Shown piece by piece: positions 9,196 through 36,320 of a stretch of 64,000 nt of DNA (position 1 is the first letter of the stretch; the number at the start of each line of letters is the position of its first letter). The stretch is taken from assembly GCA_000091205.1 (NCBI GenBank), contig AP006500.2. One strand, given 5' to 3'. The position numbers and the translations under genes are program-made. This DNA comes from Cyanidioschyzon merolae. Lineage: Eukaryota. Below the pieces are notes generated by a model, which did not search any database, was not told the DNA's origin, and worked only from the letters and a program-made list of their open reading frames with translations.

Positions 9196-11726
9196 TTATA
9201 AAGGTCCAAGAAACTTCGCCTTCATTGCCCTCGAGCGTACGGTTATGCCGAGGAATTCCCTGCCCTGTAACGGGAGCGCGACATAGGGCGCTCTGCTGTC
9301 CGCAGATTGCGGCGAAGTGGCAGCGCGCAGCTGGACAGCAGCATCCCCCGGAGCGTATCGCCTTTTCGTGAGAGCGGAGCGTATCCGAAGGAGGGATTTC
9401 CTTCGGGTGCAGGATTATAGACGTGAGCTTGTTTTTCCCAATAGCGCCATGGTTATGGGATATCCGGGAGAGCGTCTGGTTTTCTGAAGGATATGGCTTG
9501 CACTGCCCCAGCGTACAGACAAGGCGAGCTGGGGCTTGACTTTACGGCATCGTCGCTGGATACGTTCGACGTGCTTGCACTGCATCTGCGTCTTTTCACT
9601 AAACATTGTTTGATCGGGCGGGTTTTTCTTTTGGAATGCTAAGCTGATGCGTGCGCATAGAAGCGGTTGGATGCCTGCATCATGAGTGTCAGCATGGGAA
9701 CGGGCCAGGTACACGTTCCGAACTCGGGCGTGAACGCTAGCTTTCTTGTTTCTCTCAGGTGTGATGGACAGCTGCCGTTGGGGAATTTTTTTCGGCGACT
9801 GTTCACGTTTTCTCTCTTAGTTCCAGATTACAATATGCTGGTCTATTCTTTCCATCCAGCTCTGTTCACAGCAGTTGACGGATGTTGGCGGTAGCGTTCA
9901 AGTCCGGATTTCGTACCTGCCGACAGTTGTCAACGCATTTCATGCACAGACGCAAGATGCGGTGTAGGCTCGCTTGACATCTTCATCTTTTTCATGTACA
10001 GTCTCGGTACGCAGTTTGCAGCTGTGACTCCTGGATATGGACAAATGAAGTATAAATCTATCTGCCATACCCTCTCGACTGAGATCCACGTTGAAGCGCG
10101 TAAACGCCTGCTAGATCGCTCCGTATACGCCCTTATATGAAAGGCGATCCTCGATGCCCTGCTCCGTTTCCGTGCCAGGAGCGATGCCCTGCAATGACGC
10201 GCTTGGTTTGGACTATACCGTCGGCGAATGTGCTGCCGGCTGAACGTGCAAGCGCATGCCGTCCATGATAAAAATTAGCTGAGGGCATATCATAACTGGA
10301 CAACAAGTCGAGAAATGTCGATTCGTCTACGCTTTCCTCGTGCGGCACGGTAACGAACGCCCGACTGCAAAACGATCGCCGTGCTGACTGAACGCCGAGT
10401 CCAGGATGCGTATCGGGGCAAACCGAAGCGAGGCGAGCCTCTGGGCGCTCATCGTGTGAGAGCGATCATGCTGCAGCTGTCGAGTTCTGGTTCGCCGGCG
10501 GCCACCCAGGGTGGGCATTGTCTTTCGAAAGAAATCGATTCCTTGACATGACAAGTTCAGAGAAGTTTCGATTTGAACTTGTGAGAATGTCATCAAAGAG
10601 CGATGTGAATTTATGTGACTTCTTCGTCAATCCATCGCAGCGCATCGCTGTGCGCATGCGGTGCCTTGAAATGTAGAGATCGAAAACTTGAATCATGTTT
10701 GATAGGAGCACGATACACACGTACGTGAGGGAGAAGATTCGCGGATTCTACTTGTGCATTGGACAATGATATCGGTTATTATACGAACTCTTGTTCGCCG
10801 GCGTCGCAAAACATCTCGATTTCGGTAACGGAATGAATTCCTTGTCCAAAGCGTTAAAGGAGCGATTCCGAAACAAAGGAAAAACACCGAGCATCTTTAA
10901 ACTACGTTCAAGTAAGACTTGATTCCTGCACTCCGAATATCGAGGTTGCACAGCTAGAACATAGTTCCGGAAAAGAATCGAACTGGATGAACAAAGCGAG
11001 TCATCCCCTACTCGATTTTATCGTCAGCGAAATGAGAAATGTTCTACGATAATTGAGGGTGTATGAATACATACATACGCAGACGCCTCCCAGCCTTGTT
11101 TTGACCGGTTCCCCGATACCGGTTTCAGCTTCTCCCTGTATACTTCGATCCTGAGAGGCTGCTGGACAAAAGTTGGACCGGGGCAGCTTCGAGGGTCACG
11201 TCCCCGGTACCAAACTTCTTCTGATATTGATGGCGGCGTTGAAGTCTCGGTTCACGAACTCCATGCGTTTATTGCCGCTGGTGAAGCGTATCATTGCAAA
11301 GATCCCTAGAACTCGTACCCTCTGTCCCAGTACAATCTCGCTATCGTCCCATCGGACAAACAGCTGTTCTCGAGTATATATCCCCTGTTCTTGTTCTTCG
11401 TCACTTGCTTTTCTTCGCTAGATAGTCGACGAGAAGAGGATCTTTTTCGGTTTTTATCCCGGTCGCCAGCGACACCAGCCCTCTAGAATCCCCGACTCCC
11501 ATGTCCATACGGTTCGCTTAGATTTCTTATTTCTTCAAATGAACGCTTTTCGGACGCTTCGATTACAAACCGAGAAAAAGCGTTTGATGCGACGCACCCG
11601 GAGATGGCGCACAATTCAAGAAAGCGTCTACAATCTGACACGAGCCCACCGCGGCTCGAGCAGGCAACGTACGCTCAGTGCCGCCTTTCGCTTCCTCGGT
11701 GTCGGTCTGGTACCTGGGCGCCACGA

Positions 11727-12692
11727 ATGGGGCGCTGCAGCTCGTGTCGGAACAAGACGATATACTTTTGCTATGTAAATCGAGAGTTTATTTGCTTGAA
11801 CTGCGTGTTCCAGCCGAGGTATGAACTTTCCGTTGTGCGCTCGTACAAGGAATGGATTCGAGACTCGAGCTACGAGCAGCCTCCACGTTGTCCGTTTACC
11901 GGAGCGCCTCTCCGACACGGTGAGGAGCTGGTTCGGCTACCACCCCCTGACCTACGTGTGGTTTCCGCCGCGGGACTCGCAGCTTATCTTCGTGGGCGTT
12001 TCGGCCCGGACACAACACCAGCAGGATTCCGTTCGAACGAGCTGCCTTTCGGGTTGGTGCCGGACCCGCAGGATGACTCTGCAGTGGCGCAGCGTTTGCG
12101 GAGGTTCCTCGCGTTGCTCGGCTATGATGCAGCTCTAGCCGTAGCAGAGCCGCTGGAAGACAAACGTTCGAGTCCCGGCACCGTCTCGGCAGAGGGAGGC
12201 ACGCAAGCCGCCAGCGAGGCAACGCTGTTGGAGCGGCGCCTCCCGAGCGAGCAACGCCCGGTGTCTCGCCCGCTGGAGGCCACCACAGAGGCCGTGAGTC
12301 GCACGGCGCCGCGAACGGGCTCCAACACAACGATCGTGGTGGAGTCTCACAAAACCTCCGAGCCCGACTCCACGACAGCGATCGCTCCGGCACGGAAGCA
12401 GAACGCTGCTGGTCGTACAGCGGATAATGACAGCAAGGAACGCAAAATACGACAACAGAAAATACGGCGGTTCCTCAACTTTTTAGGTCAGAGCGCTGAA
12501 GTGCTCCCTTTGCCACATCCACGACCTAATCGTCGAAACCGTCGTCTGACGGGGCTCGCGCTGTCCTTCGGCTTCGGCGTGGGTATTTTAGTGTTTCTCG
12601 CGTACGTGGTTCGTCATGGTCTATTCAATCCGCTGGCTTTATGGGAATATGTCGTCGAAAGACGTCAGGGCATGTTGAGCGTTGAGCGTTGA
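11727..12692 (+). CDS. ZFPL1: Zinc finger protein-like 1 (ZFPL1) homologue: N-terminal B-box/RING-like zinc fingers plus C-terminal transmembrane anchor (Golgi-type)
   Basis: MGRCSSCRNKTIYFCYVNREFICLNCVFQP...VVRSYKEWIRDSSYEQPPRCPFTGAPL aligns with the ZFPL1 N-terminus [29 protein letters not shown]...[24 protein letters not shown]. A C-terminal hydrophobic helix is present (LTGLALSFGFGVGILVFLAYVV). The six-frame ORF opens at 11604, but the conserved MG(R/L)C start is the internal Met at 11727. Confidence 0.65.
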   Translation: MGRCSSCRNKTIYFCYVNREFICLNCVFQPRYELSVVRSYKEWIRDSSYEQPPRCPFTGAPLRHGEELVRLPPPDLRVVSAAGLAAYLRGRFGPDTTPAGFRSNELPFGLVPDPQDDSAVAQRLRRFLALLGYDAALAVAEPLEDKRSSPGTVSAEGGTQAASEATLLERRLPSEQRPVSRPLEATTEAVSRTAPRTGSNTTIVVESHKTSEPDSTTAIAPARKQNAAGRTADNDSKERKIRQQKIRRFLNFLGQSAEVLPLPHPRPNRRNRRLTGLALSFGFGVGILVFLAYVVRHGLFNPLALWEYVVERRQGMLSVER

Positions 12693-14249
12693 AAGCGCTA
12701 CTCGAAACAGCGAATCATCCCAGCGAATGTGTACCTCATGGAACCGTGTGCGCGCTTTTCACGCAACTGCTCGCTGCTCGCTATGCTGCCCAGACTGCAC
12801 ATAGCGCGTTGCCTCGAGCAGTATGCCCATATTCGCTCGATATACGAATGGCGACCTGTTCAAGGGCGAAGCGCAAGCTCCCGGCGTACGCGCTCTTCGT
12901 CAAGTGCGTCACGGCGGTCTCGTATGTGCACACGCCAGCGTCAAGCTGCCCGGAGAGAGACTGCAGCGCCCTGCCGCCGTACCACAGTGGCCTCTGGGCG
13001 CCCTACTCGGGCGATAGCCATGATCGATATCAAAGCATAGCGGAAACCATGCGGTGTCGCTTGTGCTCGCGAGGCTCCAGGGAAGATTCGTATCAGTTCA
13101 TGAACAGCGGCATGTTTTTCTTGTCGCATGAGAGCACGATGCGCGAGTCACTTCATGCGCAGCGTACAGAGAAGCAGAACTGTGTTATCCGCAGTATACC
13201 GGAAGCAGGTCGTTGAGATGATGGCGATTCCCAACTTAAGCGTGGATGCTTTTTGTCTGCTTCATAGCATATTCCGATGAATCCGCATCTGCGTATCGAC
13301 CAAGGCGCGGAAGTTTGTGTGGCGTATGCTAAGCATGCTTTGGCGAGCGTATGCTTGTAGACGAGGCCCGAAGACATTGGACGCAAGCCCGCGGACGTCG
13401 CAGCTGATACGACGCGCTCTTATGGGAAATACTTGCAGGTATCATAGCGGTTGTAAAAAACCCCCAACGAGATGCCGCTGCCAATGGTCCAGACTGTTGT
13501 GTTGCGGTGGACGACACGAACGCGCGCTGCCTCCACCTGCACCCGAGTTCGGAACAGCACACAACCACAGCGTCTAGCTCTGGTTGCGCGTAACGGCCGA
13601 AGTAGCTAGCATCCTCTGCGCTTCTGGACGGACGGTTATTCTGGGATGAACCAGTTGCGCGAGAGGATTATCGCCGCTCAGAAACAGATGCTCGCACTGT
13701 AGCGCGAGTGCTGCACCTTCCGAAAAAGCGCTTGGGCCGCACTTGCCTTAAGTGGCGGTTTCCAGTGGTGCTGGGCGCCATCGAACCCTTTGGATTGTGA
13801 GCGGGAAGAGCGGCAACCATGCAGTGACTGGCAAAGTGCACGCTGCACAACAAACCGAGCCAGACACGGAGAGCGCAGCTCATGACCTGTGCTGCAGCAG
13901 TGACCCTGCCTCGCTCACAGAGCCCAACTCGTGTCCATTGGTGAGTTCTAACAGCGACCTGCCGTCAACTATGTGTTCTACAGGTGCCTGAGACACGCGC
14001 TTCAGGTCTCCGGTCAGCGCTATGCGGGTATGGCCGGTTAGTCACCGGGTACGAGCGGACTGCAACTGACCACCGTGTTGACTGCTCAACGCGAAACAGC
14101 TCTTGCGCCGGAAAGCGCTCTCTATGAACGCTTCGACCAGGTGGTATGTTCACCCTTCAGACAAGTGACGAGTTGTATGCGTATACCAGCGACTGGCCCG
14201 GAGCGTCTGGGGCCGCGGCAACCACTACCCTAGCGAGCACCGGTACCTC

Positions 14250-15335: not shown

Positions 15336-18300
15336 CGTTCATTCGTGTCGGCAGCTCGGCAGCACGAGCGCTAGTCAGAACGGCGCTTGCACCCAGAAAC
15401 GCGCTTGAACGACAGAAATATTTGTTAAGCGAGCAATGGGGTCTCGCTTGCCAAACCAGCCGGAGCAATGTTCGGTTGTTGGCGAACTCTACACCCGTGT
15501 CAGAGTAAAATGGGACACTGAACCGCTCGCTCTCTTCATTCCCATGGATTTTCTTACGACAGATCTTAGATGTCCAGCATCGACGTGAGCAGTGCGGCAG
15601 TACGAGATGATGGACTCATGCGTACTTTAAGGATGCTTGGACGTCTTTTCGGAGCGACTTGCCCGAGTGTATGTCGCAGGGATTCGGTACGGCATTGTCG
15701 TACTGATGGTCCTCGCCACCCTCGAACGAGGGTTCGTAATCTAACCGATACCGTTGTTCAATGCATAGGTACAGGCCTCCGCTGCCTCAAGTTTCTAGCG
15801 TGAAACATGTTCAAATCACGCATTCTTCAAGGTTTCGATCTTTGTGTTTCAAGTCGTGGATACAGTAAATCCGCCTTCGGATTCACGACGAACAAAAGCT
15901 CCATGTCGCGCCTCAACGACTTGTTCACAGGCGCGTACCCAAAGTCCACTGGACTTGGAACCTCAAATAATAACCGATTCCAGTCGATAGACAAATCATC
16001 GTTTCTTGCTGACGATTCGCGAAACCGGATTCCACAGTAGCAGGACGCTTCTCGACAGATTTGTTTCCAGTGGCTCCAGTTTCTTCTGTTTGCACGGGAA
16101 AGGGCCTTAAATTCAGAACTGAGTCATCACAGCGATCGATTCCAGCTGAGCATACGTCACCTCTTTGCAACAAAACAGCGTAGACCGATCGACATTTCTC
16201 GACTTGTTCTTCAACCTGGATTTTCCTTCCGGTACTTTTTTTCATCTCGGATAACATTGCATTCCGCAAATCCTCGATCGAATGCGACGCAGTGCGCTAG
16301 CGTATGCAGCGGACAGTGTACTCGCCCAGGGCATGTATCCGAACTGGCGCGTGTGAACGTCGGGCACGGCACCGGGCGCGGAAACGGTGGCCTGCATCGA
16401 GGCGCGCCTTGTGTTCGCGTCAAGCTCATGTACCGAACGATAAAGCAAGCGCTCACGCTCCACAGAACGGATACCAGAGGCGGAGGAGAACCTGTGATGG
16501 GCGTGCCAGAGAACATCACCCCAGCTCAATATCACCGCCGCAATGGGTGCACCGCGGCTTCATACGAAAGAAGATGAACATGGCAAGCGAGACGTAGATT
16601 GCAAGTTTCGTCGATACATGGAATTCGTCAACAGCAGCCGGAATCAACGACATCGGGACATGAACGCTGCCAGCAACAGCCTTTAAATACTAACAACACG
16701 GTACACGATAGAACCTATGCAGCAACCAGTATATCCCAGAGCACGTATGGAGTTTGGGGCTTGGAAGCAGGGCGCGGAATCATGTATGCTTCACCGCGCG
16801 CTGATATCGAGCGCACTGTCGGGGAACGCTAGCGTGCTTCAACGTTTTTGTCACAGAAACAAGAATGCTGACAACGGGACTGGAGGGAAACGATAGACCG
16901 GCGTATTCAAATCCGGAGAAAACGTGTTGAAAAGGAAGCATTCGCAGAGAACGCCCTCCTAGACGAGAACTGATGACACTGGGAACAGATCCAGACTTTA
17001 GCATGTACGCTTTCGTCAGCAAAAGTGGACCCCTTCCATTTTATTCTTATATAGATGTAGGCCCGGGCTGCGCGGAACACGCGCACCCCCGCCCGGGTTT
17101 CGAACCTGCATCGTGCATGTGCGACGAGGAACCTTGTACCATTTCCGCCATCCAAGGGCGAGGTTTAAAACACACAACAGGTACGCAGTGCTGCAAACGC
17201 TGTTCTCGGAAGCATCGCTCGGGCAACAGCGTTCCCACATGGAGAGCGGGAACGTCCCTCCGCCACCTCCTTGGGAACAGTGCCTTTCGCAGTGCGCTGC
17301 TTTGAAACACCACAGGGACGGATACGGCTTGCCGCAAATCACTCCAGTTTGAACCGCACTCGGATTCGGGTTCCACGCAGGTACGCGGACCCTCCGTCGA
17401 AACCCCAATGAGCGTACGCAATGCAGCGCTGTGGCGTTCTCCCGCAGCACCCCAACATGACCAGCACTGCCAGACAGTCCCAACTTGCGGCCACAAGCGT
17501 TGCAGGTACCCGTATTGTCGCGACGCGTTTCGACCGGATAGCCTCCCTGGATATGATGCTTTCGAACAAAAGCACTCAATTCCGATGCGCCGCAGTTAGC
17601 ACAGCCCCGCGAACGGATGCTCGCAGCAGCACATATGCGGCGGCCTTGGGCCCAATACCACGGGGTATGTCTGGGCGATTCCACTGCCGGACACTGTACT
17701 GGCTCGTTGTGCATTGGACAAATGCGAACCGACGCAACGAAGCGCACTTGCTTGCGACATGGAATGCGTACCACTGAATGGCGGCAACTGGTGCGACCCG
17801 TCGCTGCACTTACATGTTCGCCTCCAGGAATATTCTCTGCAGAATTGTTTGAGGCGGACAGACGCGTATGCACCTGCAGTAGCGAAGATGAGCCAGACAA
17901 GTGCCGATCCATGGTTCGTACCAGCGACTTGGATGATGTTTTTGCGGCTTTCCACGCTCGAACACGGGAGATGCGCTCTCATCTCGACGGCACAGTGCTG
18001 GTTGGTAGCCACGGATGCTGTACCACGAGCCAGGTCCGCCTGATTCTCCAGCTACATAGAGACTGCGCTGACCGCTCCGCACAAAACTTTCTTCGGCAAG
18101 TGCGAGTCGCGAAGCTCAGCTCCATGGCGCTTATCTAACGCGATTTGCAGGAACATGACGCGGAACGGAAACTGTTCGTAGTATACAGAATGGCGCGAAC
18201 ACGCTGCGCTCAGCGCCAGCGTGTCGAATGCCAAACCGGAAGCGGCATCTGGCAACGCACGCTGAACACAAGTGCAACCAGAACAGGGTTCTTCACTAAT

Positions 18301-18493
18301 GCGGGAATTCTCTCACATATACACACATCGCCCAGAGGACACGCTTTCGAGAGTGACACGGCGCGTGGACGCGTCGACGTGTCGGTCGCGTGGCGGTAGC
18401 ACAGGCCTCTGCTGGGCAGCCAAACTGCGCGCGTGTGCTCGAGTACACACGTTCTCCCTCTGCAAGTCGACCTTATGTTCCTTCGTTCATGAA

Positions 18494-19219
18494 CTAGGCA
18501 GCTTTCTCGAAACGACCGTACTGCATTTCATAGACTTGATCGTACGCTCCAAGGCGGATGCGAACTGGGCCTGCATCTGCTTTCGGTGTTGAAGAACACG
18601 TCAGAATGAACCCCTCTTTCCGAATGTTCGCATCCAGCGCTGCGAACGGGTCCTCCACGTCCCCTGAGAGAAGCCAGGCAGCGCACGTAGTGCAGACGCC
18701 AGCTCTGCACGAGCTTGGAACCTCTGTCCATAAACCGCTTGCCTCAACCGCTTCCAGGATACTCTGTCCAGGTTGACAACGAACCACCTCCGTTCGGTCC
18801 TGGTACTCTACGGTGATTTCGATCGCTCCGTCCGCTCCCGCTTTCTCGTTCAGACTCGCAGTTGCGCGCAGTTTGCGTAGCGCTGCACGCCGCACGCCCA
18901 GCTGCTTGTGTGCCCAGCACGCCGGTCTCCGCGGCAAGGCTCGGACGGTTTCCCAGCGAGTTGCAAACATTCCAGTCAGTTGCTTCCAGCTGCGATGCGA
19001 GCTCGTCGTTTGTCCTACTAACCAAGGTTGGCACCCAGCCACAAACATTGGACGTGTTTGACTCATGGTGGCTCGTATACATACACTCGCCTGTGAGGAG
19101 CAGCGCAGTCGCCGTGCGCCGCATGCGCACCCCGTAGGTTGGCGCATGCGCTCACTCTGTCCATCAAGGAATCCATGAATCATTCCTCTATTCGACGACT
19201 CGATCCGTGAATCGTTCAT
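18494..19219 (-). CDS. Plant-type [2Fe-2S] ferredoxin with N-terminal targeting extension and C-terminal extension (FdC-like), probably plastid-targeted
   Basis: Cys ligand pattern SCRAGVCTTCA...(29 aa)...ILTC matches plant-type Fd (CRAGSCSSCAGK...LTC). The ORF is 241 aa and the mature domain starts near ...EKAGADGAIEITVEYQD. The upstream segment MFATRWETVRALPRRPACWAHKQLGVRRAALRKLRATASL is Arg/Ala/Ser-rich and lacks acidic residues, like a transit peptide. The true start Met is uncertain. Confidence 0.75.
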   Translation of the reverse strand: MNDSRIESSNRGMIHGFLDGQSERMRQPTGCACGARRLRCSSQASVCIRATMSQTRPMFVAGCQPWLVGQTTSSHRSWKQLTGMFATRWETVRALPRRPACWAHKQLGVRRAALRKLRATASLNEKAGADGAIEITVEYQDRTEVVRCQPGQSILEAVEASGLWTEVPSSCRAGVCTTCAAWLLSGDVEDPFAALDANIRKEGFILTCSSTPKADAGPVRIRLGAYDQVYEMQYGRFEKAA

Positions 19220-19420
19220 TCATAGGATCAATATGTCCATGATTCAGTCATTCTTTTATTCTGCGCTGCATACGGCATCAGCACAAGCGAAGCGCGGCGC
19301 TCAGCGCCGCCTTCCAGCAGCGCGTGCGTCGTCGAAGCGCAGCGCACCGAACGGTGTTGTTGTAACGATACCGCCGCTTCACGGACGGCAACGCAACACC
19401 GTGCTGTGACGACGTGAGCG

Positions 19421-19651
19421 ATGCCAGCAAAGCCAAACATCCGTCTCAGAGGTCAGATCGAGTACTTTGTTTCTCCGTATGAGCAGCGAATTTTTGCGGA
19501 CTGGTTCGATCCCAAGTTGGTTCTAACAAAGCTCCAACGGAAAGTCAGCGAGAATGCGAAAGACGTTTTACCCGCCTTCTTTGTGCTCGTTGGCACAATA
19601 TATTTGGGAGACAAACTCCACGAAGAAGAGGCCAAACGGCACCGCTTTTAA
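19421..19651 (+). CDS. QCR8: Cytochrome b-c1 complex subunit 8 (QCR8/UQCRQ, ubiquinone-binding protein QP-C), small single-TM mitochondrial protein
   Basis: 76-aa ORF. IEYFVSPYEQRIFADWF...LPAFFVLVGTIYLGDKLHEEEAKRH parallels human UQCRQ ISYSLSPFEQRAYPHVF...[24 protein letters not shown]. It sits in the intergenic space between the ferredoxin and L12 genes. Confidence 0.55.
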   Translation: MPAKPNIRLRGQIEYFVSPYEQRIFADWFDPKLVLTKLQRKVSENAKDVLPAFFVLVGTIYLGDKLHEEEAKRHRF

Positions 19652-19816
19652 AGAGGAAACTCGAGGGACTATGTCTTCGAGTGTGTGCAAGCGCTGGTCG
19701 CGTTCATCTCGGGGTGCGCAGGGAGCAGTCGCTGCTCGCTTTTTATGTTCACGGTGACCCCGGGGCGCACCGCGCAGAGTGGCGTCGTTTCCGCCGATTG
19801 CAAACCCAGCGCGTGC

Positions 19817-20470
19817 TTATTTTAGAGCGAGGGTAGCGCCGAACTGTTTCAAACGGTCAACGAGAGCCTCGGCCTCGTTTTTGGGCACGGCACTTTTGAT
19901 GACCTTGGGTGCAGCCTCAACGAGTTCTTTGGCCTCTTTCAGGCCGAGTCCTAAAGCAGAGCGAACTTCTTTAATAACCTGAATCTTTTTCGCCGCATCA
20001 TATTTTTCCAAGACGACGTCGAACTCGGACTTTTCTTCCGTCTTCTCTGCAGAACCAGTAGCAGCTGCCTGTGCACCAGCAGCGGCGTTGCCTGCAGTGA
20101 ACATAGCCTGCTGCATCGCGGCCAGTGCTGCTGGTGTCAGGGCACCGCCTCCGAGGGCTGGAGTGCCCTCGATCCCCAAACGCGATCGAAGCACATCGCT
20201 TAACTGCTTGGCTTGCAGTAGGTTCAGAGATAAGATTTCGTCTGCCAGACGCCCGACCCGCTCGTCGACAGGATCGTGGCGCGCGTCTCCGCTTTCGGTG
20301 ACATTCGGCTGCGTCTTGACGTGAGGAGCAGCCTGCGCAGAGACAGTGCTCCATCGTCTGCCGTCGTGTCGCCAGGAGAGACACAGCTGTGTCGACCGTC
20401 GCCCGCAGAAGAGCGTCGGTGCGAGGTACCGCACACACTGGGCAGCCTTTGCCAAGCGTGTGCCAGGCAT
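19817..20470 (-). CDS. Organellar (bacterial-type) ribosomal protein L7/L12 with N-terminal presequence
   Basis: 217-aa ORF. N-terminal dimerisation segment [29 protein letters not shown]. Canonical L7/L12 C-terminal domain [72 protein letters not shown]. Arg-rich N-terminal extension of about 45 aa. Confidence 0.8.
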
Positions 20471-21359
20471 CGCTGTACGAAAGCCTACGGTGTGCTGCTC
20501 TTAGCCAGAAGCGGAAGCGGCGTGTGGAAAATGCAGGCGCGGCGCCCTGGAAAGGCGCTTTGGTCATTCGCGCGACGCCCGGTGATTTCTATGAAAACGA
20601 GGGCTGCAATTGTTGCAGGCGGCGTGGATCGCGCTGCCCAGTAGCATCGCCGGTAGAATAGTAAACGAGAATCTCTGGATGTTCATCGAGATCGAGACAT
20701 TACTCAGAAGCGAGTCTTCATCGTTTCAAGTGCGCTAATCTCGATCAGATGATTCGCCAGCGTCATTCGGCAGTCGGTGCAGCAGACAAGGGGTGCAGTT
20801 TCCAACGAAATCGTTGAACACTGCGTCTGCGACACGGTCAGGCGTGCTGTCCCCACTGGCTGTCTTCTTGAAGATGCTCGCGAATATGCCCTGCTGACAG
20901 ACACCAGCGATGCTTGTGAGCACAACCCCGCCAGCTGACCAAACATTGGCGAGCAAGTGGGCGCGCTCCCGACGAATCCTATTCGCGTGGATCGGCGAAG
21001 CGTCAGTCTTTTGAAAACGCTCCCGAAAGCAGCGTCATTTGGCGAGCATCCGCCCATCCACTGGGATGAGGCCCCTCATTATGAACGTCATTCTCCCCGA
21101 TGATCATCGTCTGTACGGCACGCACAAACGACACCTTTTGCGGACCTGATCCCGTGGTCGTCGAGAACAAGATACGATGGAGACCTGATCCCCTGGCGAG
21201 TGGACCAAGCGCAGGTAATGCGGCACGACAGGTGCCAATACTCGGGTGTTTGACGCTGGCCTGGTGATGCAGGATCTCGTCCACGAGAACACTGGACGCC
21301 TGTCGATTGCACGCCGGGTCCCGGGGTTACGCACCGAAGGCATGACGACTCCGTTTGCG

Positions 21360-21502
21360 CCACAAAGTCGCTAAAGTTACATTAAATTCATATTTAGTAT
21401 AGATATGTACAGGCGATGCGCGACTCGAATGGCAACCTTCGCTCCACCATAAAGTCGCTAGAGTTCCATTCAATGCCAGTTTATTCCATATATGTTCGTA
21501 CT
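21360..21502. repeat. AT-rich imperfect direct repeat (about 50 bp x2) in the divergent L12 / TGD3 promoter region
   Basis: caaagtcgctaaagttacattaaattcatatttagtatagatatgtac at 21363..21410 and cataaagtcgctagagttccattcaatgccagtttattccatatatgttcgtac at 21448..21501. They share the ...aaagtcgcta[a/g]agtt.cattaaa/caatgc...tat.tatgt.c.tac framework. Confidence 0.6.
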
Positions 21503-21664
21503 GCAAATCGTCAGGCAAGCGTGCCCAGAATCGCCACAGGGTGCTATCAACCAGCATTGGCTTGCGAGCCGGTTACCGTCGATAGCACGTCTGCCTGTGT
21601 GTGAAAACGACTGACCAGGAGCGGGTACCGTGTTGGCTGCCAGTTCCCGTACCTCTATGGGGTT

Positions 21665-23575
21665 ATGAACGGTACACGAGTCTTCCAACGGGAACATCTG
21701 CGAAGTAGCACGGAGCAAATAGCATCCGCTGTAGGTCCGCCTGGCGGGATACCGGCGAACGCCCGGCGACTCCAGACGCTCAGGTTGCAACGCGTCGCGG
21801 CAACCGCTCCTGGTGCGGAGCCAGACACAGGCGAGCGCCGACAATTATTCGCCCAGTTCATGGCTACCAGTGTGCTGTGCGGATTTCGTTCAAGGGTGCT
21901 GCGATCACCGGGCACCTCGGTGACGAGACACGGCAGCAGCGCCGAGCCGGCTTTCCTCCTGGCTCGCCATGCGGCTTTTCTAGGAGCGCAGGCAGTCACA
22001 AGACGTGCGAACACTTGCGAGCGCGATAGGGATAGCCTGCAGCCTCTCCCCGGAAGGTATCTGCAAGGAAGTAAACGTACTTGCGTCCGCCGGCGTTGCG
22101 GACGGGAACGATTGCCGCCCCCGTGCCACTGTCAGTCGGCAGCTTTCGATGACGCACAGGCGCCCGGCGGTGAGTCGTGGCGCCCGCAACGCCCGCGTCG
22201 CGATGAACCAAAACAGCAGCAGCAGTCTGCGCATGAGACGACTGCGCGAGAAAACAAACCCCGCGCTTCGGAACGGATACCTCCTACGGAATCTCCGCCT
22301 CCAGATAAGGCGCGTCTAGACAGAGCCCATAACAACGAGTCGTCCCGTCACGCAGGCGATGGCAATGAACATGGTATTGTGGACACCGTCCCGTATGGCT
22401 GTCGATCCAGCCTACCAGAACGCCGTCCAGACCGGGAAGCAGCGCCTGATGATGCGGCCATTCAGGACAACACGAACGGCACCGAGGATACCGTTGTGGA
22501 GGATGCGTCCTCGGTGGACGCGGTTGGACAAGCGAAATCCCACGTATCGCCGTCTATCCGCGAGTCGCACCGCGCCCTCATCACTAGCCCCCAACGTGCC
22601 GCCATGTCCCTGGTGAGCGGTTTCGCCACAGCCTTGGCTTATGTGACAAGTCGCGTTGTCGATCGAGCGCTGGGACCAGGCACCGCAGCGTCCGTGCAGA
22701 GCTTTCTTTCGCATGATCCGTCGCGGCTGCATCCCGAGCTCGCAGACCCTAGTGCTGCGTACGAGATCGAGTTCGAGGATGTGTGCAAATCATTCGAAGC
22801 GCGGCCGGTTCTCAAGGGCCTCAACCTTCGGATTCGTCGAGGAGAAGCTGTGGGCATCATGGGGCGCTCAGGGTGTGGAAAATCCACAACACTGCGACTC
22901 ATTGCGGGCTTTGAATTACCGGATTCTGGGAGCGTTCGCATCCGCGGATGGACGCGAGACGAGCCCATCCAATATGAGCTGGGACCAATCAAAATCGGTA
23001 TGGTGTTCCAACATGCTGCACTCTTCGATTCGCTCACCGTCTTTGAGAATGTAGCGTTCGAATTGGAACATAACACCGACCTTGAGGACGATGAAATTGA
23101 AAAGGCTGTCGATATCATCCTCAGTCGCCTAGGTCTGCGGGATACCCGCGATCTTCTACCAAACCAGCTGAGTGGCGGCATGCGGAAACGCGTAAGCCTT
23201 GCTCGGAGCCTGGTCTCGGATTTAGGTAAGGGTGCCAAACCTTTACCCGACGTACTGCTGTATGATGAACCCACTGCCGGCCTCGATCCAATTGCATGTA
23301 CTCGAATCGAGAATCTGATTCGAGAGGTCCGCGAAACCGTTCCGACGTGTATAGTTGTTTCGCATCAGCTCTCAACCATTCAGCGCACCGTTGATCGAGT
23401 GGTGCTTCTGCACGGCGGCCGTATTCGCTGGGACGGACCGGTGTCGGACCTGGGGCACACCGACAACCCGTTCGTTCGCCAGCTACTCTCTGGCGACGAA
23501 AACGGCCCCATGAGTGGACCCGAATTCGACCCGGACTCATCGCTCTATGTACCCGAAGACATACAGGACGCCTGA
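21665..23575 (+). CDS. TGD3: TGD3/MlaF-family ABC transporter ATP-binding protein (plastid lipid-trafficking ATPase orthologue) with long N-terminal extension
   Basis: The C-terminal 300 aa align closely with Arabidopsis TGD3 as I recall it (from memory, not searched). GMVFQHAALFDSLTVFENVAF matches GLVFQSAALFDSLSVRENVGF. DVLLYDEPTAGLDPIACT matches EVLLYDEPTAGLDPIAST. VVSHQLSTIQRTVDRVVLLHGGRIRWDG matches VVTHQHSTIQRAVDRLLFLYEGKIVWQG. Walker A GRSGCGKST and the signature LSGGMRKRVSLARSL are present. The N-terminal extension of about 330 aa is low-complexity. Confidence 0.8.
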   Translation: MNGTRVFQREHLRSSTEQIASAVGPPGGIPANARRLQTLRLQRVAATAPGAEPDTGERRQLFAQFMATSVLCGFRSRVLRSPGTSVTRHGSSAEPAFLLARHAAFLGAQAVTRRANTCERDRDSLQPLPGRYLQGSKRTCVRRRCGRERLPPPCHCQSAAFDDAQAPGGESWRPQRPRRDEPKQQQQSAHETTARENKPRASERIPPTESPPPDKARLDRAHNNESSRHAGDGNEHGIVDTVPYGCRSSLPERRPDREAAPDDAAIQDNTNGTEDTVVEDASSVDAVGQAKSHVSPSIRESHRALITSPQRAAMSLVSGFATALAYVTSRVVDRALGPGTAASVQSFLSHDPSRLHPELADPSAAYEIEFEDVCKSFEARPVLKGLNLRIRRGEAVGIMGRSGCGKSTTLRLIAGFELPDSGSVRIRGWTRDEPIQYELGPIKIGMVFQHAALFDSLTVFENVAFELEHNTDLEDDEIEKAVDIILSRLGLRDTRDLLPNQLSGGMRKRVSLARSLVSDLGKGAKPLPDVLLYDEPTAGLDPIACTRIENLIREVRETVPTCIVVSHQLSTIQRTVDRVVLLHGGRIRWDGPVSDLGHTDNPFVRQLLSGDENGPMSGPEFDPDSSLYVPEDIQDA

Positions 23576-23988
23576 GACCCGAATCCGCCCAGGGATGTTG
23601 CAGTGCGCGTCAACAAACCGCCAATGTTCATGAGGAATCGATCTGCATGTCGCGTGCTGCCTCGTGGAGCATACCAGCGTTGCCACCGCACGCAATTTGT
23701 TGGCGTCCTGACATGCACTGGGACGCATCCAGCATCAAAACGTCGTTCTGGACGATTCTTGAGGCGGTACCCTCGCGAATACCATCCTCAGACAAGCTCC
23801 ATCGCTAGCGTCTCTGTGCCTCGGGAGACGCGTCCACGAAACGATCCCGCTGCGCTGCAGCGATTCTGATGCTGTGGTACGAACGATGTCGGATGCAGCT
23901 TGTCGATATGCATCGCGCATCATCGCGGGTGCCCTGATTCACGTCGACGAGCGTAGAGTGTCCGCACAAGGTGATATCCGATGCTGCT

Positions 23989-25593
23989 CTACCGCGGCGG
24001 CAGGTACTCGATAGCGCGCGTAGGTAAAGCGAAATCCGCCAATTCGCTTTTCACGATGCGATTCAGTTCGATGAGTACCTGTTGTTGAATTTCGAGAAAC
24101 CTCCGTCCGTCCGTCACATTCACAATGCAACTTAACTGAATCGGCAACGAGTACTCCGCAAATTCCGTGAAGAATACCGAGATGGACTCTCGGTAGGCCG
24201 CGATCTCCGGAACCTCCGCCAGCATTTCCCGCACCCGCTCCACGATCCTACCGATTTTGTCGATATCCTGGTACCGGAGTCCGAAGCGAAGATTGATCCT
24301 TCGATTTGTTATTCGAGAGTTATTGGTGAGACGTTCGTTCAAGAGCTGCGCGTTTGGAATCCAGATCGGTCGCCCGTCTGCACCGATGAGCTCGGTTTTA
24401 TAGAAACCGATCTGGCGCACTTGCCCCGATACACCGAGCGTATTCAACTGGACGGATTCACCGGGTGCAAACGGCGCCCCCAGGGCAAGCATGATGCCGC
24501 TGATAAAGTTCTTGGCAAGTTCCTGTGTGGCCAAGCCGACGGCCAAGCCTCCGATACCACCAAACGCTAAGATGGAGCGCAGTGGCAGACCGGTGGTTTC
24601 AACGAAAACCAGGAACGCAACAGCGTAAATGAGAACCGTTCCGAGCCTTCCCAGCACAAATATCTGAGACAACGACAGGTCCTCGCGTTCATACAAGAAC
24701 CAGTTGTAGAACGTGTCGAGCACGAAAGCAAAGTACCCAATCGTAGCGAGACGGGAGATAACGTACGGCAGTTTAGGCCAGATGGTGATTCCCAGTCGTG
24801 CACCCAGCACGAGCCCAAACTGACAGGCCATGACCCCCAGCCGCAGTGTTAGGAAAAGTCCCACAGCCCGCTCCGTAGACTCTATCCAGCGCACAAGCCC
24901 GTGTTCGTCAGCGGGAATAAGTTTTCTCGTTAACCACTTGTCCGGCAAACGAGCACCGGCTGGTTGAAGAACGCTTCGCGCTAAGATGCGGACCATGCGA
25001 CGATACGCAACCAACAAAATAAGAATGACGAGCAGGTCAGACAGTGTAAACGCCGCCACGAGCCTTGATTTGCCCCCCAGCGAAACTGGTGTTTCGAGGA
25101 TGCTCCCAATATCCAGGTTGTGAACGTGCGTCGAAAGGTGCGCTTGCCACAGGCTCGACAGTGCCTGCCGCTGGTGCTGCCCTGCGTGCGCCAGCAGCAG
25201 TCTACCGACGCCACGCGGCAACACAGACACCGCCGGGAGCGCTCGTTTTTTCCATCGACACAGCTTCAGTCGTGCATCTCGAGAAAAGATCCTATGCGTA
25301 TGATATCCTACACCAGAGAAGGGGTTCCCCTGCAGCGGTACGAATGAGAGCGTTTGCGTCGCTAGCTTCTCCATAGGCGTACCAGAAGCGATCGAGCAGC
25401 AATGCTTGCTTCGTTTACGCGTCGATCCACCTCGCATAGGTACAAATATTGGAGGCGCGGCGTCCTGGCGCGCGATCCGTGATGCCGCGCTGGATCCGTT
25501 TGGCGCGCGACGTGCAAGGCTTCCATGAAACAGAACAGAACTACACATTTCTTTCCTATCTTCGATCGCAGCCGCCGCAGATCGCTTGCTCAC
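23989..25593 (-). CDS. MscS-like mechanosensitive ion channel (MSL family) with N-terminal extension
   Basis: 534-aa ORF. Pore-lining TM3-like segment ILAFGGIGGLAVGLATQELAKNFISGIMLALGAPFAPGESVQL. Beta-domain block GVSGQVRQIGFYKTELIGADGRPIWIPNAQLLNERLTNNSR. Multiple upstream TM helices. The N-terminal region of about 150 aa is Arg/Ser-rich and presequence-like. Confidence 0.75.
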   Translation of the reverse strand: MSKRSAAAAIEDRKEMCSSVLFHGSLARRAPNGSSAASRIARQDAAPPIFVPMRGGSTRKRSKHCCSIASGTPMEKLATQTLSFVPLQGNPFSGVGYHTHRIFSRDARLKLCRWKKRALPAVSVLPRGVGRLLLAHAGQHQRQALSSLWQAHLSTHVHNLDIGSILETPVSLGGKSRLVAAFTLSDLLVILILLVAYRRMVRILARSVLQPAGARLPDKWLTRKLIPADEHGLVRWIESTERAVGLFLTLRLGVMACQFGLVLGARLGITIWPKLPYVISRLATIGYFAFVLDTFYNWFLYEREDLSLSQIFVLGRLGTVLIYAVAFLVFVETTGLPLRSILAFGGIGGLAVGLATQELAKNFISGIMLALGAPFAPGESVQLNTLGVSGQVRQIGFYKTELIGADGRPIWIPNAQLLNERLTNNSRITNRRINLRFGLRYQDIDKIGRIVERVREMLAEVPEIAAYRESISVFFTEFAEYSLPIQLSCIVNVTDGRRFLEIQQQVLIELNRIVKSELADFALPTRAIEYLPPR

Positions 25594-25878
25594 CTAATCG
25601 ATGGATCGATGCATGGATCGATGAACGTAGCGTGGCCGTCACGCGACACACCACGTGTCGCAGCGCGCCGCGCTTCACCGCGATCTGCAGCCACGCGAGC
25701 GCACCGAGCGCTGGGCGCCGCACGAACGCACGCACGCGATCGACGTTCGCGCGAATCACGCATTCGCCGGTGTTCCGTACGTGCGCTGTTACGAACACCA
25801 CCAACACCAACACCAACACCAACACCACAACCTTCATCGTCATCGTCTTAAACTCTGATAGCGGTTCGATCACGAGTC

Positions 25879-35891: not shown

Positions 35892-36070
35892 TTCAAATTG
35901 CCGCACCTGGGCGACGCGCCACCCCGGAGGCGCATCCCGAGCGCGCCATCCGCGACTGACGGCAGCGCAGCGATCGATGCGCTCGCGGCTCCGGAGCGGA
36001 GAGCGCTGGTGCGCGTGCGCTGCCTCGGGGCATCCTCCCTGGACGAGTGAGGCACCCGCGGTACCTTGTC

Positions 36071-36320
36071 GGCGATTTGTAGAGCTGCATAGGCCGACGC
36101 GCATACAGCAGCTTCTCACTCGATATTTGGTGGCGATTTGTAGAGCTGCATAAGCCGACGCGCATACAGCAGCTTCTCACTCGATATTTGGTGGCGATTT
36201 GTAGAGCTGCATAAGCCGACGCGCATACAGCAGCTTCTCAGTCGATATTTGGTGGCGATTTGTAGAGCTGCATAAGCCGACGCGCATACAGCAGCTTCTC
36301 AGTCGATATTTGGTGGCTGA
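36071..36320. repeat. Tandem repeat, 61-bp unit x about 4.2 (ggcgatttgtagagctgcataagccgacgcgcatacagcagcttctcactcgatatttggt)
   Basis: Four near-perfect units at 36071, 36132, 36193 and 36254, followed by a partial unit. It lies immediately 5' of the WD40 gene. Each unit encodes MRSCCMRVGLCSSTNR in the gene frame, which artificially extends the ORF. Confidence 0.9.

What the first reader, a model, noticed from the sequence alone, without database searches (positions are those of the whole stretch)
18494..25593. Contiguous cluster of five nuclear genes for organelle-targeted proteins
In 7 kb, on alternating strands, sit five such genes. They are a plant-type ferredoxin (plastid-type), cytochrome bc1 subunit 8 (mitochondrial), bacterial-type L7/L12 with a presequence, a TGD3 orthologue (plastid inner-envelope lipid-import ATPase in plants) and an MscS-like channel with a presequence (plant MSL2/3 are plastidial). 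Several of the encoded proteins are homologous to bacterial proteins. Such clustering could be chance in a compact genome. It could also reflect co-regulation through the shared divergent promoters (19220..19816 and 20470..21665, the latter containing an AT-rich direct repeat).
Basis: partly seen in the sequence, partly recalled or inferred. Interest (0 to 1): 0.5.

Follow-up and report, generated by a model that had tools for sequence, protein, structure and literature searches.

The report
Chance run of five organelle-protein genes

Summary
The window is Cyanidioschyzon merolae 10D, chromosome 18. The five genes are real and already annotated as CMR177C to CMR181C. They are a plant-type ferredoxin, complex III subunit QCR8, mitochondrial ribosomal protein L12, a MlaF/TGD3-like ABC ATPase of cyanobacterial affinity, and a YnaI-like MscS channel.

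Two are mitochondrial. Two or three are probably plastidial, but the MscS location is inferred only from its N-terminus.

The run is not beyond chance. If 20-30% of about 4,775 genes encode organelle proteins, 1-8 runs of five or more are expected genome-wide.

Synteny is not cluster-specific:
- Cyanidiococcus keeps the five genes together with their non-organelle flanks.
- Cyanidium keeps four, with a WNK-like kinase in the ABC slot.
- Galdieria keeps only the tail-to-tail L12/QCR8 pair, as it does for about 11% of adjacent pairs.
- Gracilaria keeps none next to its ABC gene.

No intergenic sequence is conserved between genera. The motifs shared by the spacers also occur upstream of unrelated genes.

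In Cyanidiococcus, mL12 and ABC differ about 6-fold in transcript level across their shared spacer and shift in opposite directions between diploid and haploid cells.

The AT-rich repeat is real but species-specific.

Verdict: ordinary genes whose adjacency reflects chance plus inherited gene order.

The parts
18494..19066 (-). CMR177C, 'similar to ferredoxin' (BAM82422.1, 190 aa). It is a plant-type [2Fe-2S] ferredoxin with a roughly 80-aa N-terminal extension and a C-terminal extension ending ...MQYGRFEKAA.
   Evidence: Exact match to BAM82422.1. Pfam Fer2 and NCBIfam fdx_plant. The best PDB hits are plant and cyanobacterial ferredoxins. Cys spacing is C-x4-C-x2-C-x28-C. It is listed as CmFd2 CMR177c in PMC6304933. 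The N-terminus MSQTRPMFVAG... has its first acidic residue at position 39.
19067..19420 (.). Divergent spacer between the ferredoxin and QCR8 start codons (354 bp).
   Evidence: Coordinates. It cannot be aligned with the orthologous spacers of Cyanidiococcus or Cyanidium.
19421..19651 (+). CMR178C, cytochrome bc1 (complex III) subunit 8 / QCR8 (BAM82423.1, 76 aa). It has one hydrophobic helix and no presequence.
   Evidence: Exact match. Pfam UcrQ and Cyt_b-c1_8 score above their cut-offs. PDB hits are complex III subunit 8 of mammals and Arabidopsis.
19652..19816 (.). Tail-to-tail spacer between the QCR8 and mL12 stop codons (165 bp). The same adjacency and orientation are kept in Cyanidiococcus (147 bp), Cyanidium (52 bp) and Galdieria (about 81 bp).
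19817..20470 (-). CMR179C, mitochondrial ribosomal protein L12 precursor (BAM82424.1, 217 aa). It is a bacterial-type L7/L12 with a roughly 65-aa basic, acid-poor presequence.
   Evidence: Exact match and source name. Pfam and NCBIfam L12. Homologues include G. sulphuraria 'L7/L12 (mitochondria)' and the non-photosynthetic Phytophthora. First acidic residue at position 36.
20471..21664 (.). Divergent spacer between the mL12 and ABC start codons (1194 bp). It holds no tRNA, no Rfam hit, no ORF conserved in Cyanidiococcus and no relic of the kinase gene that occupies this slot in Cyanidium.
21360..21495 (+). AT-rich direct repeat: two 49-nt copies (21360-21408 and 21447-21495), 76% identical and 87 nt apart, lying 170-305 bp upstream of the ABC ATG. 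It may be a gene-specific promoter element, but this was not tested.
   Evidence: 2 copies in the window, 0.02 expected. It is present in C. merolae-like metagenome contigs but absent from Cyanidiococcus.
21665..23575 (+). [quoted passage not shown] The C-terminal roughly 270 aa form a MlaF/TGD3-type ATPase with intact Walker A, signature, Walker B and H-loop. The N-terminal roughly 360 aa are a low-complexity extension.
   Evidence: Exact match. Pfam ABC_tran. The best single-domain PDB hits are MlaF. The nearest non-red-algal relatives are cyanobacterial K02065 ATPases at 50-52% identity. Motifs are shown.
23989..25374 (-). [quoted passage not shown] It is a YnaI-like MscS channel with about 105 residues before the first hydrophobic helix.
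   Evidence: Exact match. Pfam MscS domains. PDB scores are YnaI 157 bits against Arabidopsis mitochondrial MSL1 89 bits. The nearest relatives outside Cyanidiales are gammaproteobacterial, at 34-37% identity. Phobius predicts 5 TM helices in the Cyanidiococcus orthologue. Hydrophobic segments are shown.
25375..25878 (.). Divergent spacer between MscS and CMR182C, a hypothetical protein with no organelle evidence. The run of organelle genes ends here.

Best explanation
These are five ordinary, independently transcribed nuclear genes of Cyanidioschyzon merolae (CMR177C-CMR181C).

Shown: two products are mitochondrial, namely QCR8 of complex III and mitoribosomal bL12m.

Inferred: two products are very probably plastidial. 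One is a non-photosynthetic plant-type ferredoxin. The other is a cyanobacterium-derived MlaF/TGD3-type ABC ATPase, presumably the motor of an inner-envelope lipid transporter. The fifth product is a YnaI-like MscS channel that is probably organellar, with plastid favoured on N-terminal features.

Their adjacency has no common mechanism. It results from a high density of organelle-protein genes (about 20-30% of about 4,800 genes) in a compact, intron-poor genome whose genes mostly alternate in strand, together with slow rearrangement within Cyanidiaceae.

The run was assembled piecemeal. The tail-to-tail mL12/QCR8 pair is old and is shared with Galdieria. Ferredoxin and, at one remove, MscS joined it in the Cyanidiaceae ancestor. 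The run became uninterrupted only in the Cyanidioschyzon/Cyanidiococcus lineage, where the ABC gene occupies the slot that holds a WNK-like kinase gene in Cyanidium.
For: - Identity: exact matches to the annotated C. merolae proteins, plus domain and PDB evidence.
- Chance: 1.2-7.9 runs of five or more are expected genome-wide for p = 0.20-0.30. Among 42 neighbouring genes in the Cyanidiococcus table, at least 7 (17%) are organelle residents by name, which is 7 of the 23 named genes (30%). The same window also holds NDUFV2, a GatC-domain gene and Mda1.
- Strand alternation extends beyond the cluster (14 of 18 adjacent annotated pairs in the window). C. merolae is flagged in the literature for non-random gene orientation (PMC2871058).
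- Synteny equals the background. Cyanidiococcus keeps the five genes plus CMR182C, WNK and the 608-aa gene. Cyanidium has MscS, WNK-like kinase, L12, QCR8, Fd, ZFPL1, Hox ... PHD, so the ABC gene is absent from the slot while the flanks are kept. Galdieria sulphuraria and G. partita keep only L12/QCR8. Gracilaria and another eukaryote have none of the others next to their ABC gene.
- Background adjacency retention is 74% in Cyanidium and 11% in Galdieria.
- No conserved non-coding blocks and no RNA genes.
- Expression in Cyanidiococcus: logFC (2n/n) is +0.41, +0.60 and +0.36 for Fd, QCR8 and mL12, against -0.70 and -0.28 for ABC and MscS. TPM is about 208 for mL12 against 32 for ABC across their shared spacer.
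Against: - A run of five in one 23-gene window has only a 0.5-3% prior probability. For this window alone it is mildly unusual, and it becomes expected only across a whole-genome scan.
- The organelle fraction p is estimated from a 42-gene sample and general knowledge, not from a genome-wide C. merolae proteome.
- The expression evidence covers two conditions in a sister genus, not a time series in C. merolae.
- Fd, QCR8 and mL12 do move in the same direction by similar amounts.
- The mL12/QCR8 pair has survived to Galdieria, which only about 1 adjacent pair in 9 does.
- The localisation of the ABC and MscS proteins is inferred, not shown.
Confidence: 0.85

Rival explanations
1. Functional neighbourhood. 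The genes are kept together because shared divergent promoters, or a common chromatin domain, co-regulate organelle biogenesis genes.
For: - Three head-to-head spacers exist.
- Fd and QCR8 share a short 354-bp spacer. In Cyanidiococcus both, together with mL12, are slightly higher in diploids (+0.36 to +0.60).
- The octamer CGCACCGA and the motif GCGCCGCGC each occur in all three spacers.
- Head-to-head pairs are often co-expressed in eukaryotes (PMC2871058).
Against: - Each divergent pair mixes organelles: plastid Fd with mitochondrial QCR8, and mitochondrial L12 with the plastid-type ABC.
- mL12 and ABC differ about 6-fold in level and change in opposite directions.
- The shared motifs are equally present upstream of WNK, UFSP and CMR509C, so they are general promoter-proximal motifs.
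- No spacer sequence is conserved in the sister genus.
- The ABC gene is not in this slot in Cyanidium, and four of the five genes are dispersed in Galdieria.
- The number of such runs expected by chance is at least 1.
Confidence: 0.06
2. Only the tail-to-tail mL12/QCR8 pair is under selection. Overlapping or shared 3' ends (52-165 bp between stop codons) would couple two mitochondrial genes. The rest of the run is chance.
For: - The pair is adjacent and convergent in Cyanidioschyzon, Cyanidiococcus, Cyanidium, G. sulphuraria and G. partita.
- Both products are mitochondrial.
- The other seven single-copy genes flanking this pair in the table rows (CMR172C-CMR191C) are scattered in G. partita.
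Against: - In the sample, 6 of 54 (11%) immediately adjacent pairs are still adjacent in G. partita, so survival of one pair is unremarkable.
- Very short convergent spacers leave few viable breakpoints, which by itself favours retention.
- The pair is not adjacent in an unidentified alga (L018) or in Phytophthora.
- A WNK-like kinase, which is not an organelle protein, also stays next to L12 in Galdieria and Cyanidium.
Confidence: 0.1
3. The block is a relic of a single transfer of organellar or bacterial DNA, such as an operon fragment, into the nucleus.
For: Four of the five proteins have bacterial homologues.
Against: - The affinities differ. ABC is cyanobacterial. MscS is gammaproteobacterial YnaI-like. 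L12 groups with eukaryotic mitochondrial L12. QCR8 is a eukaryote-specific subunit with no NCBIfam hit.
- The genes alternate in strand and each has its own N-terminal extension.
- The run was assembled stepwise across lineages.
- GC content is uniform with the flanks.
Confidence: 0.01

Closest known systems
Head-to-head (bidirectional-promoter) gene pairs in compact eukaryotic genomes, as surveyed by Davila Lopez et al. 2010 (PMC2871058)
   Same: The region contains three head-to-head pairs with 354-1194 bp spacers. C. merolae is noted in that survey for non-random gene orientation.
   Different: Conserved, co-expressed pairs in that survey are usually functionally related, for example HSP60/HSP10 or the histones. 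Here the pairs mix plastid-type and mitochondrial functions, their spacers are not conserved, and mL12/ABC are not co-regulated in the one data set available.
Reported chromosomal clustering of nuclear genes for mitochondrial or chloroplast proteins in Arabidopsis (recalled from memory: Elo et al. 2003; Alexeyenko et al. 2006; not checked here)
   Same: Neighbouring nuclear genes whose products go to organelles.
   Different: Those reports rest on genome-wide statistics and co-expression. Here a single run is at the level expected by chance, and no genome-wide test could be run.
TGD3 / MlaF, the ATPase of the TGD1-2-3 / MlaFEDB lipid transporter
   Same: It is a single-NBD ABC ATPase. Its best full-length PDB matches are MlaF. 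It shares about 50% identity with cyanobacterial K02065 ATPases, and its catalytic motifs are intact.
   Different: It has a roughly 360-aa low-complexity N-terminal extension that plant TGD3 and bacterial MlaF lack. Its NCBIfam MlaF score is 137 bits against a cut-off of 441. The partner subunits, the localisation and the lipid phenotype were not examined.
E. coli YnaI and the plant class I MscS-like channels (MSL1 mitochondrial, MSL2/3 plastidial)
   Same: The MscS pore and beta-domain and the C-terminal domain are present. There are five predicted TM helices, as in YnaI.
   Different: It is closer to YnaI (157 bits) than to MSL1 (89 bits). Its nearest relatives outside Cyanidiales are gammaproteobacterial. 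The Msl2-3_C Pfam domain also hits those bacteria, so it does not indicate a plastid location.
Non-photosynthetic plant-type ferredoxins with C-terminal extensions (FdC1 / FdC2 / Fed2; PMC6304933)
   Same: It has the plant-type Cys motif and a C-terminal extension ending in Q-Y-G-R-F, which resembles the Q-F-G-R/K-Y-F motif described for Fed2/FdC2.
   Different: That paper labels CMR278C, not CMR177C, as the C. merolae FdC2, and calls CMR177C 'CmFd2'. Its subgroup was not resolved here.

Membership tests
Co-regulated gene cluster driven by shared bidirectional promoters | Neighbouring genes are arranged head-to-head with a short shared spacer. | tested here: met
Fd|QCR8 is 354 bp, mL12|ABC is 1194 bp and MscS|CMR182C is 504 bp.
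Co-regulated gene cluster driven by shared bidirectional promoters | The members are co-expressed above the genomic background. | tested here: inconclusive
   Only a two-condition data set from the sister genus was reachable. Fd, QCR8 and mL12 have logFC of +0.36 to +0.60, while ABC has -0.70 and MscS -0.28. mL12 is at about 208 TPM and ABC at about 32 TPM. The stored C. merolae time-series supplements hold none of the CMR17x/18x identifiers.
Co-regulated gene cluster driven by shared bidirectional promoters | Gene order is conserved beyond the background level of synteny. | tested here: not met
   Cyanidium keeps 2 of the 4 internal adjacencies, against a 74% background. Galdieria keeps 1 of 4, against an 11% background. 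The non-organelle flanks are equally conserved. Gracilaria keeps none.
Co-regulated gene cluster driven by shared bidirectional promoters | The spacers contain conserved or cluster-specific regulatory motifs. | tested here: not met
   There is no blastn or tblastx similarity between the C. merolae and Cyanidiococcus spacers. The shared k-mers also lie upstream of unrelated genes.
Plant-type [2Fe-2S] ferredoxin, plastidial | Fer2 fold with the C-x4-C-x2-C-x~29-C ligand motif. | tested here: met
   Pfam Fer2, NCBIfam fdx_plant as best hit, plant and cyanobacterial ferredoxins as PDB hits, and Cys spacing of 4/2/28.
Plant-type [2Fe-2S] ferredoxin, plastidial | The protein is located in the plastid. 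| not testable with these tools
   The only evidence is a roughly 80-aa acid-poor extension with Phe near the N-terminus in three genera: MSQTRPMFVAG, MVNHSVGFALP and MAFFIGGVP. That a Phe-containing motif marks red-algal transit peptides is recalled from memory.
Cytochrome bc1 subunit 8 (QCR8 / UQCRQ) | A protein of about 70-80 aa with a single helix that matches the UcrQ / Cyt_b-c1_8 profiles. | tested here: met
   Both Pfam models score above their gathering cut-offs. PDB hits are complex III subunit 8. It has one hydrophobic segment. The source name is 'cytochrome c reductase ubiquinone-binding protein'.
Mitochondrial ribosomal protein bL12m | The bacterial L7/L12 C-terminal domain and hinge, preceded by a mitochondrial-type presequence. 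| tested here: met
   NCBIfam L12 scores 93.9 bits against a cut-off of 84.4. The presequence of about 65 aa is basic, with its first acidic residue at position 36. It aligns with mammalian MRPL12 over residues 34-216.
Mitochondrial ribosomal protein bL12m | It is the mitochondrial copy rather than the plastid copy. | tested here: inconclusive
   It is annotated as a mitochondrial precursor. Its homologues include G. sulphuraria 'L7/L12 (mitochondria)' and Phytophthora. That red-algal plastid genomes encode their own rpl12 is recalled from memory. No phylogeny or localisation was done.
TGD3 (plastid lipid-import ABC ATPase) / MlaF | It belongs to the MlaF-type (K02065) clade of ABC ATPases and has intact catalytic motifs. 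| tested here: met
   It shares 50-52% identity with cyanobacterial K02065 proteins over about 81% of the query. MlaF gives the best full-length PDB matches. Walker A, the signature, Walker B and the H-loop are present. It falls below NCBIfam's equivalog cut-off for bacterial MlaF.
TGD3 (plastid lipid-import ABC ATPase) / MlaF | TGD1 (MlaE-like) and TGD2 (MlaD/MCE) partners are present in the same organism. | not tested
   They are not encoded in the window, and no search was made.
TGD3 (plastid lipid-import ABC ATPase) / MlaF | Location on the stromal side of the inner envelope, and a role in ER-to-plastid lipid transfer. | not testable with these tools
   No C. merolae localisation or mutant data were found.
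Plastidial MscS-like channels (MSL2/3) | The MscS pore-lining helix, the beta-domain and the C-terminal domain are present. | tested here: met
   Pfam MS_channel_2nd, MS_channel_3rd and Msl2-3_C score above their cut-offs; MS_channel_1st scores 21.6 bits, just below its 23.1-bit cut-off. It aligns with YnaI over residues 211-455.
Plastidial MscS-like channels (MSL2/3) | A specific relationship to plant MSL2/3 or to cyanobacterial channels. | tested here: not met
   The nearest relatives outside Cyanidiales are gammaproteobacterial YnaI-like channels (34-37% identity), which also carry PF24956. No plant or cyanobacterial protein appears among the 33 hits. That search is limited by its word index.
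Plastidial MscS-like channels (MSL2/3) | The protein is located in the plastid envelope. | not testable with these tools
   The only evidence is about 105 residues before the first TM helix, with a Phe-containing N-terminal motif in three genera: SFVPL, SFVTP and LFFAPT.

The most novel reading that the evidence does not exclude
The convergent mL12/QCR8 pair has been kept adjacent in all four sampled genera of Cyanidiophyceae, with only 52-165 bp between the stop codons. It might be held together by selection. For example, overlapping 3' ends could couple the expression of a mitoribosomal protein and a respiratory-chain subunit. The Cyanidiaceae-wide Fd-QCR8-mL12 trio might then be a small co-regulated organelle module. 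My evidence does not exclude this, but about 11% of adjacent pairs survive equally long.
Probability: 0.08. Interest if true: 0.35.

Novelty: already known. Interest (0 to 1): 0.1.

Why it matters
It matters little. If the run had been a selected, co-regulated module, it would have been a rare eukaryotic example of physical clustering of nuclear genes that serve two different organelles. The evidence instead shows annotated housekeeping genes whose adjacency fits chance and inherited gene order.

The work has some by-products:
- Corrected gene boundaries and spacer assignments for this region.
- A local base rate for retention of gene adjacency in Cyanidiophyceae: 74% to Cyanidium and 11% to Galdieria.
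- A caution that the C. merolae MscS gene cannot be called plastidial by homology.
- A few probable annotation errors in related genomes.

Tried and rejected
- C. merolae time-series expression. The stored supplements of PMC6606799 and PMC6374488 hold none of the CMR17x/18x identifiers, and the PMC6606799 files hold no CMR or CMT identifier at all, so they appear truncated. Co-expression in C. merolae itself could therefore not be tested.
- Literature on TGD3 or MSL proteins in C. merolae. No localisation or functional data were found. Among the five locus tags, only CMR177C appears in any main text.
- A published organelle-proteome size for C. merolae. None was found. A 42-gene local sample and a range were used instead.
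- Targeting predictors (TargetP and similar) are not available here. PMC11581415 (abstract) reports that their reliability declines with evolutionary distance from the training species. Only descriptive N-terminal features were used.
- A hidden gene or RNA in the 1.2-kb mL12|ABC spacer. There is no tRNA, no Rfam match at E <= 0.1, no conserved ORF and no relic of the Cyanidium kinase gene.
- The bacterial promoter and terminator scan is irrelevant for a eukaryote and was ignored.
- The first exact look-ups of the minus-strand genes failed because I had trimmed the start codon instead of the stop codon. They were repeated correctly.
- The PDB search could not separate mitochondrial from plastid L12.
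- The single-transfer (operon relic) origin was rejected because the genes have differing phylogenetic affinities.

Full report
**Source and gene identities.** The window is nuclear DNA of Cyanidioschyzon merolae 10D, from a 1,253,087-bp chromosome whose locus tags begin CMR. Exact-sequence look-ups match the five ORFs to consecutive GenBank proteins:
- BAM82422.1, 'similar to ferredoxin', 190 aa
- BAM82423.1, 'cytochrome c reductase ubiquinone-binding protein', 76 aa
[quoted passage not shown] A published gene table gives their locus tags as CMR177C-CMR181C. They are followed by CMR182C (hypothetical) and CMR183C (WNK-like kinase). Pfam confirms all five domain assignments.

- The annotated ferredoxin starts at 19066 (MSQTRPMFVAG...), not 19219.
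- The annotated MscS starts at 25374, not at the GTG at 25593.
- The head-to-head spacers are 19067-19420 (Fd|QCR8), 20471-21664 (mL12|ABC) and 25375-25878 (MscS|CMR182C).
- QCR8/mL12 and ABC/MscS are tail-to-tail, with 165 and 413 bp between them.
- The AT-rich direct repeat is real. It has two 49-nt copies at 21360-21408 and 21447-21495, 76% identical, and occurs nowhere else in the window. It is present in C. merolae-like metagenomic contigs but absent from the sister genus.

**What each protein is.**
- Ferredoxin. It has a plant-type ligand motif (C-x4-C-x2-C-x28-C), and its best PDB matches are plant and cyanobacterial ferredoxins. It has a C-terminal extension ending Q-Y-G-R-F. Schorsch et al. 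2018 list it as CmFd2, distinct from the plastid-encoded PetF and from CmFdC2, which is CMR278C (PMC6304933).
- QCR8. It matches the UcrQ and Cyt_b-c1_8 profiles over its whole length and has no presequence.
- L12. It has a basic, acid-poor presequence of about 65 aa. Its eukaryotic homologues include Galdieria 'L7/L12 (mitochondria)' and the non-photosynthetic Phytophthora.
- ABC protein. The C-terminal roughly 270 residues form a MlaF-type ATPase with intact motifs. MlaF gives the best full-length PDB matches. The nearest non-red-algal relatives are cyanobacterial K02065 ATPases at 50-52% identity. That fits a TGD3-like, endosymbiont-derived plastid protein. Orthology to Arabidopsis TGD3, the partner subunits and the location remain untested. 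The first roughly 360 residues are a low-complexity extension, and the frame is also open in Cyanidiococcus.
- MscS. It is closest to E. coli YnaI (157 bits, against 89 for Arabidopsis mitochondrial MSL1). Outside Cyanidiales its nearest relatives are gammaproteobacterial channels that themselves carry the 'Msl2-3_C' Pfam domain. Homology therefore does not place it in the plastid.

About 105 residues precede the first hydrophobic helix of the MscS protein. The MscS and ferredoxin orthologues of three genera carry a Phe-containing motif close to the N-terminus. From memory, such a motif is typical of red-algal transit peptides. On that basis I call the MscS and ferredoxin assignments 'probably plastid, inferred'.

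**Is five in a row more than chance?** I simulated 4,775 genes on 20 chromosomes.

| Organelle fraction p | Expected maximal runs of 5 or more, genome-wide | Probability in one 23-gene window |
|---|---|---|
| 0.20 | 1.2 | 0.5% |
| 0.25 | 3.4 | 1.3% |
| 0.30 | 7.9 | 3.2% |

For p, I used the published Cyanidiococcus gene table, which is ordered along the chromosome and carries C. merolae-derived descriptions. Among the 42 non-cluster genes in the stretch around the cluster, at least 7 (17%) are organelle residents by name. These are NDUFV2, mS21, chloroplast AsnRS, an AFG1-like ATPase, glutamyl-tRNA reductase, OGDH-E2 and Miro. Nineteen are 'hypothetical', and 7 of the 23 named genes is 30%. 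At least one 'hypothetical' in the window has a GatC domain. So p of about 0.2-0.3 is reasonable, and a scan of the whole genome should meet one to several such runs.

Strand alternation is also not special to the cluster. In the window, 14 of 18 adjacent annotated pairs are on opposite strands. C. merolae has been singled out for non-random gene orientation (PMC2871058).

**Synteny.**
- Cyanidiococcus yangmingshanensis keeps Fd-QCR8-L12-ABC-MscS. It also keeps CMR182C, WNK and the 608-aa gene. Only the ZFPL1-Hox segment is inverted.
- Cyanidium caldarium has WD40(Mda1)-WNK-CMR182C-MscS-[WNK-like 450-aa kinase]-L12-QCR8-Fd-ZFPL1-Hox-...-PHD. Four of the five genes are there, a kinase occupies the ABC slot, and the non-organelle flanks are equally conserved. 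There is no relic of that kinase in the C. merolae spacer.
- In Galdieria sulphuraria only L12 and an intact but uncalled QCR8 ORF remain adjacent and convergent, with a WNK-like kinase upstream.
- The orthogroup table of PMC13353863 independently shows the same for G. partita. QCR8 is g2563 and L12 is g2562, while Fd is g7687 and lies elsewhere.
- The ABC orthologue of Gracilaria domingensis, and that of another eukaryote, have none of the other four genes within 10 kb. L12 of an unidentified alga and of Phytophthora has no QCR8 neighbour.

From the same table I estimated the background. Of 54 immediately adjacent single-copy pairs in Cyanidiococcus, 40 (74%) are adjacent in Cyanidium and 6 (11%) are adjacent in G. 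partita. The cluster's record is 2 of 4 internal adjacencies in Cyanidium and 1 of 4 in Galdieria. That is no better than the background. The uninterrupted run of five exists only in the Cyanidioschyzon/Cyanidiococcus lineage.

**Regulation.** None of the spacers shows any blastn or tblastx similarity between C. merolae and Cyanidiococcus, apart from two blastn matches of 21 and 26 nt and one weak tblastx match in the MscS|CMR182C spacer. No Rfam family or tRNA lies in the region.

K-mers shared by the three head-to-head spacers are GCGCCGCGC and CGCACCGA. Both also occur upstream of WNK. CGCACCGA, with 16 copies against 4.6 expected, is spread over 5' regions of unrelated genes across the window. 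They look like general promoter-proximal motifs.

The only expression data I could reach are for Cyanidiococcus diploid against haploid cells (PMC13353863).

| Gene | logFC (2n/n) | TPM in 2n |
|---|---|---|
| Fd | +0.41 | ~245 |
| QCR8 | +0.60 | ~189 |
| mL12 | +0.36 | ~208 |
| ABC | -0.70 | ~32 |
| MscS | -0.28 | ~207 |

All five proteins were detected in the proteome. Thus mL12 and ABC, which share a spacer, are not co-regulated in that comparison. The similar small shifts of Fd, QCR8 and mL12 are matched by unlinked organelle genes such as GluTR (+0.62) and chloroplast AsnRS (+0.34). This evidence is thin, because it covers two conditions in a sister genus. C. merolae time-series supplements were not retrievable for these genes.

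**Conclusion.** The genes are known and correctly named in substance, but the MscS cannot be called plastidial by homology and the TGD3 orthology is unproven. The adjacency is best explained by chance in a compact genome rich in organelle-protein genes, preserved by the slow rearrangement typical of Cyanidiaceae.

The one element with deeper conservation is the tail-to-tail mL12/QCR8 pair. About one adjacent pair in nine survives as long, so it is at most a minor curiosity. Co-regulation through shared promoters is not supported, though it is not rigorously excluded for Fd|QCR8.

Noticed in passing
window 19343, 21330, 25700, 30412, 32323, 49292, 50444, 52305, 56729 and others: The octamer CGCACCGA (either strand) occurs 16 times in the window, against 4.6 +/- 2.3 in dinucleotide shuffles (0 of 100 shuffles reach 16). 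Most copies lie in intergenic or 5'-proximal DNA of genes of any function. It is possibly a general C. merolae promoter-proximal motif.
   Followed up: partly
L017 (Galdieria sulphuraria KB454524.1) 10608-10838, minus strand: There is an intact QCR8 ORF of about 77 aa (MPPKAPPYKIKGVIEYFVSPNEQKLFADL...) that is not among the called genes of this record. It lies convergent to the mitochondrial L12 gene.
   Followed up: yes
window 15336-18493: A 3.1-kb stretch between the homeobox gene and ferredoxin has no annotated gene. Its 298-aa ORF (17016-17912, minus strand) has no Pfam hit, is not in the protein collection, and the stretch around it shows no blastn or tblastx similarity to the spacer upstream of Fd in Cyanidiococcus. 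The stretch coincides with one breakpoint of a C. merolae-specific inversion of the ZFPL1-Hox segment, relative to Cyanidiococcus and Cyanidium.
   Followed up: partly
L016 (Cyanidium caldarium) 11243-11818; L011 (Cyanidiococcus) 11934-13862: Two annotations appear to be truncated at the N-terminus. The Cyanidium ferredoxin (113 aa) has an open frame starting MAFFIGGVPLPL 78 codons upstream. The Cyanidiococcus ABC gene (440 aa) has an open frame 202 codons upstream that aligns with the C. merolae N-terminal extension.
   Followed up: partly
window 33435-36119 (-), 39077-39826 (+), 59031-60071 (-): The same window holds further organelle-related genes. The WD40 gene is the mitochondrial division protein Mda1 (CMR185C), which in Cyanidiococcus is almost haploid-specific (logFC -9.9 in PMC13353863). 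The other two are NDUFV2 (CMR188C) and a gene with a GatC domain.
   Followed up: partly
window 23989-25374 (-): The nearest relatives of the MscS channel outside Cyanidiales are gammaproteobacterial YnaI-like proteins (34-37% identity), not cyanobacterial or plant ones. This may hint at a non-endosymbiotic bacterial origin, but the search was limited by its word index.
   Followed up: no
window 21665-22750 (+): The TGD3-like ATPase carries an N-terminal extension of about 360 aa that is rich in Arg, Pro, Glu, Gln and Ser and has no hydrophobic segment. That is far longer than a transit peptide needs to be. It is kept as an open frame in Cyanidiococcus but is poorly conserved.
   Followed up: no
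L016 8410-9762 (Cyanidium) and L017 7433-9808 (Galdieria): A WNK-like kinase gene lies immediately upstream of mitochondrial L12 in both Cyanidium and Galdieria. In C. merolae the ABC gene occupies that slot, and the WNK gene (CMR183C) lies four genes from mL12, just beyond MscS and CMR182C.
   Followed up: partly
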